From: a virus
Taxonomy: Duplodnaviria > Heunggongvirae > Uroviricota > Caudoviricetes
Length of the DNA stretch: 64,000 nt
Direction: 5' to 3' (one strand)
IMG/VR virus record: IMGVR_UViG_3300015177_000008
Span: 32,001 to 96,000 of that record
Part shown: in pieces, positions 24,499 through 25,082 of the stretch
How positions within the stretch are numbered: the first letter of the stretch is position 1
How the letters are laid out: every line of letters begins with the position of its first letter
Position numbers and translations under genes: made by a program
Notes under the pieces: model-generated
The model's input: the letters and a program-made list of their open reading frames with translations, nothing else
The model's database searches: none
What the model was told of the DNA's origin: nothing

Positions 24499-25082
24499 AT
24501 AAACTCCTGAATCAAGCGCCGCGCCGATTTTTTTCCTCGCGCGTGCGCACACGCGTGCGTGTTAATAATTATTAAAATAAACAAATTACTTCCCAGAACA
24601 GGTTTTTATAAACCTGAACTGAACGAACGAAGTGAGTGAAGTTCACCTCGAACGAAGTGAGAGGTTGTCTTTTCAGGTAATACTCTCCCAGGGAGGTGAG
24701 TATAAAAATCCCTCACCAACCTGGTCGTTTCATAACCTGAAAAGTTATGGCCTAAGTCTACTGCCAGCTTAGACTTGGGAAGTTATGGATGACAGCACCC
24801 CAGAACCGAGATCTTCCCACACTTTATGAAGGGGAGTACTGGATTCAACCTCTCGAAACACCCCAGACTCGACAATCATAAAGTGACCCTTGTCTCCGCT
24901 CACTTTGGTTCCCCCTTCCCCGACACCTAAACGGCACCGGTTCTACGCTGGTAGTGAGCTTTTTTAAACCTGACGCCAGTGACGCTTACCCCCACCCATC
25001 AGGTCGAGTCTCCAGTCTACGACTGGAAACTATCAGATCTTAGCACTTACAATTCATTTTATGAATAGTTTGTACTTATCTA
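24499..25082. other. 584-bp noncoding region with direct repeats and multiple stem-loops (candidate ncRNA or cis element)
   Basis: No ORF of 60 aa or more; repeats cgaacgaagtgag x2; hairpins ggtgag..ctcacc, cataac..gttatg, taagtct..agactta, ccagtc..gactgg. Confidence 0.4.

What the first reader, a model, noticed from the sequence alone, without database searches (positions are those of the whole stretch)
24499..25082. 584-bp ORF-free region with direct repeats and several stem-loops
Between the RNase HI gene and the next gene there is no ORF of 60 aa or more, unusual in this densely packed backbone. The sequence has two copies of cgaacgaagtgag and at least four local hairpins (ggtgag/ctcacc, cataac/gttatg, taagtct/agactta, ccagtc/gactgg). 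I could not recognise a tRNA. Candidates are a regulatory ncRNA, a lytic origin or a packaging site.
Basis: seen in the sequence. Interest (0 to 1): 0.5.

Follow-up and report, generated by a model that had tools for sequence, protein, structure and literature searches.

The report
Unannotated large structured RNA in phage-plasmids
The "empty" 584 bp next to the RNase H gene of this SSU5-like phage-plasmid is a gene for a roughly 450-nucleotide, tightly folded non-coding RNA that is better conserved than the proteins around it, is made while the element sits quietly as a plasmid, matches no known RNA family and has no known job.

Summary
The window is an SSU5/pHCM2-like phage-plasmid of E. coli. 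Window 24499-25082 has no conserved ORF.

It is an RNA gene on the minus strand. The predicted parts are:
- a sigma-70 promoter with an extended -10 element (25065-25037);
- a start near 25030 with a 5' hairpin whose sequence varies but whose stem is kept;
- a 420-nt core (25008-24585) that is 90-100% identical in relatives whose flanking genes are only 70-85% identical;
- a 3' stem followed by a U-rich tract (24584-24560).

Compensatory changes cluster in helices. At paired columns G-U outnumbers A-C by 739 cells to 16, which fixes the strand.

Published strand-resolved RNA-seq of the 97%-identical phage-plasmid Cyrano (pLF82) supports a discrete transcript. The spurious ORF CYRAN_81, which lies inside the core, is 12-40 times more abundant than either neighbour in lysogens, about the level of the prophage repressor.

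Rfam 15 has no match, and no searched record annotates an RNA there. The real iteron origin (RepA) is 17 kb away and the terminase about 30 kb away.

Function is unknown. My best guess is a stand-alone RNA that acts in the plasmid state. A read-through-controlling leader and an R-loop primer RNA remain rivals.

The parts
25060..25065 (-). Predicted -35 hexamer (TTCATA; TTyAmn in relatives)
   Evidence: It lies 17 nt upstream of the -10 hexamer, and the TT is conserved in all clades. This is predicted, not mapped.
25037..25045 (-). Predicted extended -10 element (TG-C-TAAGAT)
   Evidence: Alignment A1 columns 15-24 (GTGnTAnnAT) are invariant across 52 sequences while the flanking columns vary. 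The same layout is seen in the type-B relatives (TGTATCAT).
25072..25080 (-). Conserved GATAAGTAC motif upstream of the -35; a perfect 14-bp palindrome (GGTAAGTACTTACC) in relatives; possible operator
   Evidence: The motif TAAGTA..ATTTA is also found upstream of the type-B RNA. The function is inferred.
25008..25030 (-). H0: the 5' hairpin, starting at the predicted transcription start (about 25030)
   Evidence: The sequence differs between clades but the stem is kept. Six of its 9 pairs show changes on both sides.
24585..25008 (-). Conserved structured core of the RNA (helices H1-H18)
   Evidence: It is 90-100% identical in 32 divergent relatives, against 56-87% in the flanking CDSs. RNAalifold predicts 137 pairs; 99.4% of cells are paired, against 35-48% when the partners are slid. 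G-U outnumbers A-C by 739 cells to 16. The Cyrano feature CYRAN_81 (= 24769-24903) is 12-40 times more abundant than its neighbours.
24624..24661 (-). The two direct repeats (CUCACUUCGUUCG on the RNA strand; 24624-24636 and 24649-24661), which flank and partly overlap the complementary CGAGGUGA (24643-24650)
   Evidence: The central segment can pair with either copy, giving two mutually exclusive hairpins. This is read directly from the sequence, and one of the two forms appears. All these positions are invariant, so covariation cannot test it.
24560..24596 (-). 3' stem arm CUGGGAAGU followed by a U-rich tract of variable sequence: the predicted intrinsic terminator and 3' end
   Evidence: In every clade GGGAAGU pairs with an upstream ACUUC(C) segment and is followed by a U-rich run. 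In L067 and L031 the 5' arm is supplied by a different, local sequence. rnhA RNA is 12-40 times lower than the RNA in Cyrano.
24510..24559 (-). GC-rich block of overlapping palindromes with an A5-9 run in a hairpin loop, between the RNA and the rnhA ribosome-binding site
   Evidence: It is conserved in all clades although it lies outside the core, and the length of the A run varies. Its role is unknown.
23905..24498 (-). rnhA (RNase HI with a basic N-terminal extension), the downstream neighbour; not shown to be part of the RNA's function
   Evidence: In L071-L073 its N-terminal half is replaced by a JukAB defence cassette, yet the RNA stays 91% identical.
25083..25313 (-). 76-aa ORF (phrog_5343), the upstream neighbour and a synteny marker
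   Evidence: It is 47% identical in pCAV-type plasmids, which carry a different RNA in the same slot.

Best explanation
The region is a stand-alone gene for a structured non-coding RNA of about 450 nt, read from the minus strand.

**Shown**
- A 420-nt core is under stronger purifying selection than the flanking protein genes.
- The substitutions that do occur preserve base pairs on the minus strand only.
- In a 97%-identical phage-plasmid the region gives an RNA 12-40 times more abundant than either neighbouring gene while the element is a plasmid prophage. That level matches the prophage repressor mRNA.

**Inferred**
- Transcription starts near 25030 from a sigma-70 promoter (-35 at 25065-25060, TG plus -10 at 25045-25037).
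- The first 23 nt form a protective 5' hairpin.
- The RNA ends at the U-rich tract 24584-24560, after a 3' domain whose closing stem (ACUUC/GAAGU) works as an intrinsic terminator. This terminator insulates rnhA and the genes beyond it during lysogeny.

**Proposed mechanism (inference, about 0.5-0.6)**
- The folded RNA itself is the product. It acts in the plasmid state by binding a conserved protein or nucleic-acid partner of the element or the host. The partner is unknown.
- The two direct repeats are not DNA binding sites. They are the two alternative pairing partners of one central segment (CGAGGUGA). The 5' copy also supplies the ACUUC arm of the closing stem, so they could toggle the 3' domain between a terminating and a read-through form.
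For: **Identity of the element.** The best match is E. coli plasmid NZ_CP117002.1 at 100% identity, and phage SSU5 matches at 87%.

**Conservation**
- Core windows are 0.90-0.997 identical to the window sequence, against 0.56-0.87 in rnhA and 0.68-0.85 in the 76-aa ORF.
- 687 plasmids from Escherichia, Klebsiella, Enterobacter, Salmonella, Citrobacter and Cronobacter carry the RNA at 90-100% nucleotide identity. Their RNase H proteins are only 79-83% identical.
- Both edges of the conserved block are sharp.

**Structure**
- z = -6.6 against shuffles.
- RNAalifold gives 137 pairs, 14 of them with double changes. These cluster in H0, H1, H2, H13 and H18.
- 99.4% of cells are paired, against 35-48% when partners are slid. 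184 cells carry double changes, against 55 +/- 8 in shuffles.

**Strand.** G-U/U-G cells number 739 against 16 A-C/C-A cells. Among variable pair columns, 26 contain G-U and 5 contain A-C.

**Not coding.** Indels of 1-2 nt occur at six places in the core. The 44-aa ORF changes frame between clades.

**Promoter and terminator.**

**Transcript (PMC9928086, Table 1 and S1 Table).** The paper's transcription-profile figure (for the Gally prophage, same dataset) shows + and - strand profiles.
- CYRAN_81: log2(FPKM+5) of 6.8-10.35.
- CYRAN_80 (upstream ORF): 3.1-5.8.
- rnhA: 2.6-5.0.
- Repressor CYRAN_45: 6.4-10.35.

**Independence from rnhA**
- The RNA is kept when rnhA is truncated by a JukAB insertion.
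- A different, also structured RNA of about 450 nt sits in the same slot behind the same promoter motif in pCAV-type plasmids.
- In three of the seven pCAV-type plasmids examined, the downstream gene is convergent.
Against: - The 5' and 3' ends are predicted, not mapped.
- The RNA-seq number comes from a 135-nt annotated feature, not from a coverage profile I could inspect.
- The effective number of independent lineages is small, about 5-6 clades. Many non-structural column pairs also look 'compensatory'. Most helices never vary, so covariation neither supports nor contradicts them.
- No trans target was found. Nothing of 17 nt or more in the 108-kb element is complementary to the RNA.
- No binding partner is known.
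- The RNA lies in the same orientation as a long operon, directly upstream of rnhA, which also fits a cis-acting leader.
- In the type-B relatives the hairpin that follows the -10 is itself followed by a U run. That fits poorly with a simple 'promoter then RNA' reading.
Confidence: 0.58

Rival explanations
1. Cis-acting leader or attenuator. The RNA is the 5' leader of the rnhA operon. A large sensor domain decides whether the 3' domain forms the terminator or the alternative hairpin built from the other repeat copy. This gates transcription into rnhA and the downstream early genes. The abundant RNA seen in lysogens is the prematurely terminated leader, as with riboswitch leaders, the lambda PR' 6S RNA or the P4 leader.
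For: - The RNA has the same orientation as rnhA and lies directly upstream of it, with no second promoter evident between them.
- Mutually exclusive pairings of the two repeats involve the arm of the closing stem.
- RNA abundance falls 12-40 fold across the 3' domain.
- A defence cassette (JukAB) has inserted just downstream in the same orientation, as if to use this transcription.
Against: - In 3 of 7 type-B plasmids the slot RNA is followed by a convergent gene, so there is nothing to regulate.
- The type-A RNA is unchanged where rnhA is truncated.
- No ligand or factor is known.
- 420 nt of near-invariant sequence is far more than known leaders need.
- There is no covariation between the 3' hairpin and the rnhA translation start.
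Confidence: 0.25
2. Primer RNA of an R-loop origin that works like ColE1 RNA II. The G-rich transcript stays hybridised to its template. RNase HI, encoded next door, cuts it near the A run (24528-24534). A DNA polymerase then extends it leftward, in the same direction as almost all genes of the element.
For: - The length from the predicted start to the A run is about 500 nt. From memory, ColE1 RNA II is about 555 nt.
- The RNA strand is G-rich (125 G against 92 C) with several G4-5 runs.
- An AT-rich spacer and a GC-rich block follow the RNA.
- An RNase HI gene is adjacent in most members.
- The 5' hairpin has a variable sequence and a conserved shape, like an incompatibility determinant.
- The copy number of Cyrano is 5.5 per chromosome.
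Against: - There is no sequence similarity to any ColE1-type replicon. All 687 plasmid hits are SSU5-like elements, and there is no RNAI match.
- No antisense promoter was found.
- The element already has a RepA plus an iteron origin.
- GC skew does not change at this position.
- A terminator-like 3' end precedes the A run.
- The RNA is kept where rnhA is lost.
Confidence: 0.09
3. A DNA-level site. The repeats and palindromes would be protein-binding sites of an iteron origin, a packaging (pac or cos) site or a recombination site, and the RNA-like features would be incidental.
For: - There are two exact 13-mers 25 bp apart, and several inverted repeats.
- The record of one related phage (PQ492289.1) happens to start about 300 bp from the element.
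Against: - G-U to A-C asymmetry of 739 to 16 is not expected for duplex DNA sites.
- Only two repeat copies exist, and the motif occurs nowhere else.
- The real iterons (13 or more copies of GTATGCTGTCAGCGGT) flank repA at 42.0-43.8 kb.
- The terminase is about 30 kb away.
- The region is transcribed as a discrete abundant RNA.
- A fold in single-stranded DNA (G-T wobble) is not strictly excluded.
Confidence: 0.04
4. A degenerate or frameshifted protein gene, or a small protein gene. An example is the 44-aa ORF annotated as CYRAN_81.
For: - ORFs of 30-46 aa exist on both strands.
- One of them is annotated in Cyrano and was scored as an expressed 'moron'.
Against: - Indels of 1-2 nt shift the frame between clades. 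The CYRAN_81 frame changes after A1 columns 210-211.
- No hydrophobic peptide or Shine-Dalgarno sequence was seen on reading the ORFs.
- The substitutions preserve base pairs.
Confidence: 0.02

Closest known systems
ColE1/pMB1 RNA II (replication primer RNA processed by RNase H)
   Same: - Length of about 500 nt.
- Highly structured, with G runs.
- Lies in an ORF-free stretch of a plasmid.
- Here an RNase HI gene is adjacent.
- Alternative foldings are possible.
   Different: - No sequence or Rfam similarity.
- No antisense RNA I or promoter for one.
- The element has its own Rep protein and iterons elsewhere.
- A terminator-like 3' end is present.
- The RNA persists where rnhA is lost.
Immunity RNAs of phage-plasmids and satellites (P1/P7 c4, P4 CI, N15 CA).
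   Same: - Expressed in lysogeny from a constitutive promoter at the head of an operon whose distal genes stay silent.
- A central sequence is complementary to two flanking direct repeats, as in P4 seqA/B/C and the P1 a/b sites.
- In SSU5 and pCAV-type relatives an antirepressor or Rha gene lies further downstream.
   Different: - Those RNAs are 70-90 nt and are processed from a precursor. This one is about 450 nt.
- No complementarity to downstream ribosome-binding sites was found.
- The E. coli clade has no antirepressor downstream.
Orphan large structured RNAs of phages and bacteria (GOLLD, ROOL, OLE, HEARO)
   Same: - Size above 400 nt and many helices.
- Carried by a mobile element.
- Found by conservation and covariation, with function unknown.
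   Different: - No Rfam match, even at E = 10 or below.
- No GNRA tetraloops seen in the predicted hairpin loops.
- Confined to Enterobacteriaceae phage-plasmids.
- Sequence almost invariant rather than structure-only conservation.
Lambda PR' 6S leader RNA and riboswitch-type terminated leaders
   Same: - Layout of promoter, short stable RNA, terminator, then an operon that is silent in lysogeny.
- Abundant terminated product in lysogens.
   Different: - Much longer and far more conserved.
- No Q-like factor or ligand identified.
- Type-B copies exist without a downstream co-oriented gene.
Type III toxin-antitoxin RNA (ToxI)
   Same: - Layout of promoter, RNA, terminator, then a nuclease gene.
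- The RNA is in 10-40 fold excess over the downstream gene.
   Different: - No tandem 34-36-nt repeats.
- The downstream protein is a housekeeping-type RNase HI (60% identical to chromosomal RNase HI), not a ToxN-like toxin.
- No PADLOC hit.

Membership tests
Any Rfam 15 family | Covariance-model match at the gathering score, or at least a credible E-value | tested here: not met
   (threshold E = 10 or below, both strands) found only noise inside the region: HCV_SL at 21 bits over the GC block and mir-375 at 15 bits. One search (gathering scores, whole window) found only cspA at 52998-53416.
ColE1-type RNA II / RNA I origin | Sequence homology to ColE1-family ori or RNA II | tested here: not met
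   blastn against 72,556 plasmids, which (from my own knowledge) include many ColE1-type replicons, hit only SSU5-like elements, nearly all over 100 kb.
ColE1-type RNA II / RNA I origin | Antisense RNA I gene (promoter plus terminator) opposite the 5' end of the primer | tested here: not met
   One search found no plus-strand promoter-like site inside 24560-25020. One search found no RNAI (RF00106) match.
ColE1-type RNA II / RNA I origin | Persistent RNA-DNA hybrid, RNase H cleavage and DNA synthesis starting at the site | not testable with these tools
   This needs DRIP, primer mapping or 2D gels. Indirectly, there is no GC-skew change.
Iteron-type plasmid origin | Several (usually 3 or more) phased repeats next to the cognate rep gene | tested here: not met
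   Only 2 copies occur here. The 13 or more iterons flank the Rep3-family repA at 42015-43767.
Phage packaging site (pac or cos) | Location in or next to the terminase genes; defined virion DNA ends | tested here: not met
   The terminase large subunit lies at 59.6-60.8 kb of NZ_CP117002.1, and the element at 90.7-91.2 kb. Virion ends are not testable here.
Stand-alone bacterial or phage ncRNA gene | Own promoter | tested here: inconclusive
   A conserved TGnTAnnAT with a TTyAmn -35 at 17 nt is present. The consensus scan did not list it. The start site is not mapped.
Stand-alone bacterial or phage ncRNA gene | Discrete transcript more abundant than its neighbours | tested here: met
   PMC9928086 Table 1 and S1 Table: CYRAN_81 is 12-40 times above CYRAN_80 and CYRAN_82 in five conditions.
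Stand-alone bacterial or phage ncRNA gene | Conserved secondary structure supported by compensatory changes, on one strand | tested here: met
   The caveat is clade-structured variation.
Stand-alone bacterial or phage ncRNA gene | Intrinsic terminator at the 3' end | tested here: inconclusive
   A stem ending in GGGAAGU plus a U-rich tract is present in every clade, and is compact in L067 and L031. The simple scan did not detect it. The 3' end is not mapped.
Type I toxin-antitoxin (hok/sok-like) mRNA | Conserved small hydrophobic ORF | tested here: not met
   The small ORFs are not hydrophobic and change frame between clades.
CsrB/RsmB-type sponge | Many GGA motifs in hairpin loops | tested here: not met
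   By eye I counted about 8 GGA in 450 nt, which is roughly chance level, and I saw no concentration in loops. There is no RF00018 hit inside the RNA.
Known anti-phage defence systems (PADLOC) | Neighbouring proteins match a defence-system model | tested here: not met
   One search gave no hits for the 8 neighbouring proteins. Only the cassette inserted in L071-L073 matches (JukA/JukB).

The most novel reading that the evidence does not exclude
SSU5-like phage-plasmids keep a dedicated 'RNA slot' between the dam-associated small ORF and rnhA. It holds one of at least two structured RNAs of about 450 nt that cannot be aligned to each other: type A here, and type B in pCAV-like plasmids. Both sit behind the same promoter motif and are made in the prophage state at the level of the repressor.

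The most novel reading is that these are a new class of large functional RNAs, either RNP scaffolds or sensors. They would govern the plasmid/prophage lifestyle (lysis-lysogeny, copy number or immunity specificity) or protect the element against host defences. They would be neither leaders nor primers.
Probability: 0.4. Interest if true: 0.8.

Novelty: new member of a known kind. Interest (0 to 1): 0.63.

Why it matters
**Why the RNA stands out**
- Structured RNAs above 400 nt are rare in bacteria and phages. From my own knowledge, the ones studied so far have proved to be ribozymes, RNP scaffolds or unusual regulators.
- This RNA sits in a clinically common element. It is found in 232 of 5,426 complete E. 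coli genomes and in about 690 plasmids of Klebsiella, Enterobacter, Salmonella and others.
- It is the best-conserved stretch of its neighbourhood.
- It is expressed in lysogens, most strongly inside macrophages.
- No searched record annotates an RNA there. In Cyrano part of it is annotated as a 44-aa hypothetical protein.

**What follows from it**
- It gives phage-plasmid biology a concrete, testable candidate regulator.
- It gives RNA biology a new family with a second, non-homologous occupant of the same locus.
- It corrects an annotation: CYRAN_81-type 'hypothetical proteins' are not proteins.

Tried and rejected
**Searches that found nothing**
- Rfam at permissive thresholds: nothing.
- tRNA/tmRNA scan: nothing.
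- Seven literature searches on SSU5, pHCM2 and phage-plasmid ncRNA or origin: nothing on this RNA. An eighth search led to the LF82/Cyrano paper with the expression data.
- Complementarity to the rest of the 108-kb element, by blastn-short: nothing above chance. An RNAduplex scan timed out.
- PADLOC and Pfam on the neighbouring proteins: uninformative, except for JukAB in relatives.

**Ideas tested and dropped**
- I remembered a resemblance between 'ACGCGCGAGGAAAAAAATCGG' and the ColE1 origin. On reflection, the ColE1 sequence I recalled is the RNA II promoter region, not the origin. What remains is only a generic 'GGAAAAA then CG-rich' likeness, so I dropped it as evidence.
- Pairing of the last hairpin with the rnhA ribosome-binding site (10 of 12 nt in the window) does not covary in other clades.
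- GC skew shows no inflection.

**Calls that were wasted or limited**
- An nhmmer profile of the type-A RNA found nothing in pCAV-type (L164) or Moellerella (L165) plasmids. The family is therefore confined to the SSU5/pKpn/pSLy3-like groups at this sensitivity.
- An all-against-all covariation scan for pseudoknots was swamped by clade-level co-changes.
- No covariance model of the whole RNA could be built, because of the 400-column limit.
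Full report
**What the window is**

The region and its flanks are 100% identical to E. coli plasmid NZ_CP117002.1 (108 kb). They are 97-99% identical to phages Cyrano (pLF82), PhiR41_1 and CMS-2020a, and 87% identical to Salmonella phage SSU5. The window is therefore part of an SSU5/pHCM2-like phage-plasmid. Its long ORFs are almost all on the minus strand. They include:
- a Rep3-family RepA (42021-43235, plus strand) flanked by 13 or more iterons;
- a DnaE-like polymerase;
- a RecA interrupted by an intein;
- ribonucleotide reductase and other DNA-metabolism genes.

**Checking the observation**

- Between rnhA (23905-24498, minus) and a 76-aa ORF (25083-25313, minus) no ORF reaches 60 aa.
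- CGAACGAAGTGAG occurs exactly at 24624-24636 and 24649-24661 and nowhere else in 64 kb.
- The four hairpins are present.
- The 584 nt fold far better than dinucleotide shuffles. The minus strand gives -212.6 kcal/mol (z -6.6) and the plus strand -174.1 kcal/mol (z -6.2).
- ARAGORN finds no tRNA.
- Rfam finds nothing credible, even at E = 10 or below.

**Conservation**

I fetched 80 IMG/VR loci through the RNase H protein and aligned the window's minus strand (25500 down to 23700) with them. I then took the 32 relatives that are below 90% identical overall.
- The stretch 24590-25000 is 90-99.7% identical to the window.
- The rnhA codons are 56-87% identical and the 76-aa ORF 68-85%.
- Both edges of the conserved block are sharp, at about 25008 and about 24585.

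In PLSDB the core is found in 687 plasmids of Klebsiella, Escherichia, Enterobacter, Salmonella, Citrobacter and Cronobacter at 90-100% identity. Their RNase H proteins are only 79-83% identical to ours. The RNA is in 232 of 5,426 complete E. coli genomes, and nothing is annotated under the listed matches. A non-coding block that is more conserved than the genes around it must be functional.

**It is an RNA, read from the minus strand**

A 52-sequence alignment (A1) gave an RNAalifold consensus of 137 pairs in 18 helices.

Counting pairs on that structure:
- 99.4% of 7,118 cells are standard pairs, against 35-48% when the 3' partners are slid by 1-3 columns.
- 14 pairs have changes on both sides.
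- 184 cells carry double changes, against 55 +/- 8 in shuffles (0 of 500 shuffles reach the observed value).

The double changes cluster in five helices:
- H0: 6 of 9 pairs.
- H1: 62-98 AU/GC, 63-97 CG/UA, 67-93 AU/GC.
- H2: 111-169 UA/CG/UG.
- H13: 297-319 CG/UA/UG.
- H18: 459-468 UA/GC.

The cleanest test is strand asymmetry. At paired columns there are 739 G-U/U-G cells but only 16 A-C/C-A cells. Among pair columns that vary, 26 contain G-U and 5 contain A-C. On the plus strand every G-U would be a C-A mismatch. The pairing is therefore selected on the minus strand, which is the coding strand of the neighbouring genes.

There is a caveat. Variation is clade-structured, with about 5-6 lineages. 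An all-against-all scan therefore gives many spurious 'compensatory' pairs. Helices H6-H7, H11 and H14-H17 never vary, so they are neither supported nor contradicted.

**It is not a gene for a protein**

Indels of 1-2 nt occur at A1 columns 133, 153, 205, 210-211, 361-362 and 401. The 44-aa ORF that Cyrano annotates as CYRAN_81 changes frame between clades. None of the small ORFs looks like a membrane peptide.

**Anatomy of the RNA** (minus strand)

1. *Upstream motif.* A conserved GTAAGTA motif lies upstream of the -35. In relatives it is a perfect palindrome, GGTAAGTACTTACC, which suggests an operator.
2. *Promoter.* The -35 is TTCATA (25065-25060). After a 17-nt spacer comes TG-C-TAAGAT (25045-25037). 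The positions GTGnTAnnAT are invariant while their surroundings vary.
3. *Start and 5' hairpin.* Seven nucleotides after the -10, at about 25030, starts H0 (25030-25008). Its sequence differs in every clade but it always pairs.
4. *Core* (25008-24585).
   - H1 is a 15-bp hairpin.
   - H2 and H3 form a three-way junction, next to a single-stranded GGGGAAGGGGGAACC.
   - A large domain closed by long-range helices holds four hairpin arms.
5. *3' domain.*
   - CGAGGUGA (24650-24643) can pair with either the upstream or the downstream copy of the direct repeat (C)UCACUUCG.
   - The ACUUC of the upstream copy can instead pair with GAAGU (24589-24585) and close a Y-shaped stem.
6. *Predicted 3' end.* Directly after GGGAAGU comes a U-rich tract that is conserved in composition but not in sequence (24584-24560). 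In L067 and L031 the 5' arm of this stem comes from a different, local sequence, giving a compact canonical terminator. I read that as architectural covariation for a terminator.
7. *Downstream block.* A conserved GC-rich block of overlapping palindromes (24559-24510), with an A5-9 run in a loop, precedes the rnhA ribosome-binding site. Its role is unknown.

**Transcript evidence from the literature**

Misson et al. 2023 (PMC9928086) re-analysed RNA-seq data (GEO GSE154648) of E. coli LF82, whose plasmid pLF82 is phage-plasmid Cyrano. Their transcription-profile figure for the Gally prophage shows + and - strand profiles, which suggests the library is strand-resolved. Their Table 1 lists CYRAN_81 as a 'moron' expressed 12-fold above the Cyrano background in LB lysogens. 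CYRAN_81 spans record 78657-78791, which is window 24769-24903 on the minus strand, inside the core.

Their S1 Table gives log2(FPKM+5) values:

| Feature | LB | 1 h | 6 h | Macrophage 1 h | Macrophage 6 h |
|---|---|---|---|---|---|
| CYRAN_81 (inside the RNA) | 6.8/6.9 | 9.3/9.0 | 6.9/6.9 | 9.0/8.2 | 10.35/10.3 |
| CYRAN_80 (upstream ORF) | 3.4/3.1 | 4.6/4.2 | 4.1/4.1 | 5.8/5.1 | 5.2/5.0 |
| CYRAN_82 (rnhA) | 2.6/3.4 | 3.9/3.8 | 4.4/4.3 | 4.7/4.0 | 5.0/4.8 |

The repressor CYRAN_45 runs from 6.4 to 10.35 and the integrase from 5.6 to 10.3, with a similar profile. The RNA is thus a discrete unit, 12-40 times more abundant than both neighbours. It is present in the plasmid (lysogenic) state and most abundant inside macrophages. 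I could not inspect per-base coverage, so the ends remain predictions.

**Context in relatives**

- In three IMG/VR relatives (L071-L073) the N-terminal half of rnhA is replaced by a two-gene cassette that PADLOC identifies as JukA/JukB. It lies immediately downstream of the RNA in the same orientation. The RNA stays 91% identical.
- pCAV-type Klebsiella plasmids (RNase H 50% identical, small ORF 47% identical) keep the synteny of dam, small ORF, a gap of about 650 nt, then rnhA.
- That gap cannot be aligned with our RNA by nhmmer. It folds equally well (z -6.4) and is conserved in 30 plasmids.
- In a 7-sequence alignment the gap shows 149 predicted pairs, 13 with double changes.
- It begins with the same TAAGTA..ATTTAC-17-TGTATCAT motif and a hairpin of variable sequence directly after the -10.
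- In three of the seven plasmids the next gene is convergent, not rnhA.
- The slot therefore holds one of two RNAs of about 450 nt, and neither depends on rnhA.
- Moellerella relatives lack both the RNA and rnhA at this place.

**What it most likely does**

The gene architecture is a promoter, a structured RNA and a terminator. Together with its independence from the downstream gene and its repressor-like expression, this points to a stand-alone RNA that acts as RNA in the prophage/plasmid state. It probably works with a conserved protein or nucleic-acid partner. Near-invariance across genera suggests a partner that is itself invariant.

I found no extended antisense target in the 108-kb element. 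The direct repeats are best explained as the two alternative partners of one central segment. Because the upstream copy also supplies an arm of the terminator stem, the 3' domain could switch between termination and read-through into rnhA. This keeps the 'leader/attenuator' reading alive as the main rival.

The ColE1-like primer idea is attractive because of the adjacent RNase HI, the length of about 500 nt and the G-richness. It fails every membership feature I could test. It also fits poorly with the RepA/iteron origin 17 kb away and with the loss of rnhA in some carriers.

A pac site or an iteron origin is contradicted by the strand asymmetry, the copy number of the repeats and the distance to the terminase.

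**Novelty and verdict**

- No Rfam 15 family matches.
- The annotated records I inspected carry no RNA feature here; in Cyrano part of the region is mis-annotated as a 44-aa protein.
- No paper in the searchable library describes the RNA.

I file it as a new family of large structured ncRNA of mobile elements, with function unknown.
- The claim that it is a structured, expressed, minus-strand RNA: about 0.85-0.9.
- The full best explanation, stand-alone and acting as RNA in the lysogenic state: about 0.58.

Noticed in passing
window 23738-23883 (minus strand), between the rnhA stop codon and the next ORF (23265-23759): A weak CsrB/RsmB-like Rfam hit (20.5 bits, E 0.0049, below the gathering score of 71). 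It has hairpins with CAGGAUGA and CAGGAUGG loops and a strong GC hairpin at 23789-23810. These could be CsrA-binding sites in the 5' UTR of the downstream gene, or a small RNA.
   Followed up: no
L164:2342-2930 (NZ_CP101792.1 45,474-46,123) and alignment A2: A second structured RNA of about 450 nt ('type B'), not alignable to type A, occupies the same slot in 30 pCAV-like Klebsiella plasmids. It has the same promoter motif, 13 compensatory pairs in 7 sequences, and an internal hairpin with a U7-8 tract nested in a helix of about 45 bp.
   Followed up: partly
L071:1217-2829 (also L072, L073): A JukA/JukB anti-phage defence cassette has replaced the N-terminal half of rnhA, directly downstream of the RNA and in the same orientation. 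The spot behaves like a cargo insertion site that is transcribed in lysogeny.
   Followed up: partly
window 42015-42120 and 43214-43767, flanking 42021-43235 (plus strand): Thirteen or more iterons (GTATGCTGTCAGCGGT) lie on both sides of a Rep3-family repA. The first cluster overlaps the 5' end of the listed repA ORF. This is the plasmid replication origin and incompatibility region of the element.
   Followed up: yes
window 52998-53416 (plus strand): A full-length match to the cspA thermoregulator 5' UTR (RF01766, 185.7 bits). The phage-plasmid carries a cold-shock-type leader, presumably with a csp gene, on the strand opposite to most genes.
   Followed up: no
window 46553-48892 (minus strand): A RecA-like protein of 779 aa interrupted by an intein with a LAGLIDADG homing-endonuclease domain.
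   Followed up: no
window 18937-19758 and 19625-20623 (minus strand): Two overlapping ORFs match the N- and C-terminal halves of one PHROG DNA methyltransferase (phrog_6263). In this element the gene appears split by a frameshift.
   Followed up: no
window 24510-24559: A GC-rich block of overlapping palindromes (CACGCGTG, GTGCGCAC) and a hairpin whose loop is an A run of variable length (5-9). It is conserved in all clades, just upstream of the rnhA ribosome-binding site. Its purpose is unknown.
   Followed up: partly
window 25066-25082: The motif GTAAGTA upstream of the predicted -35 is a perfect 14-bp palindrome (GGTAAGTACTTACC) in Enterobacter and Salmonella-type relatives. It is shared with the type-B locus. 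It may be an operator for a regulator of the RNA promoter.
   Followed up: partly
window 8993-11155 and 12811-17061 (minus strand): Cargo genes: a complete methionyl-tRNA synthetase and a 1,416-aa inverse autotransporter (intimin/invasin-like) adhesin.
   Followed up: no
Cyrano OV696614.1 40268-40822 (CYRAN_43); not present at the corresponding place in this window: In the LF82 RNA-seq this 'hypothetical protein' is 723-fold above the prophage background (log2 11.5-14.9), by far the strongest signal on the phage-plasmid. It may be another mis-annotated RNA or a highly expressed moron.
   Followed up: no
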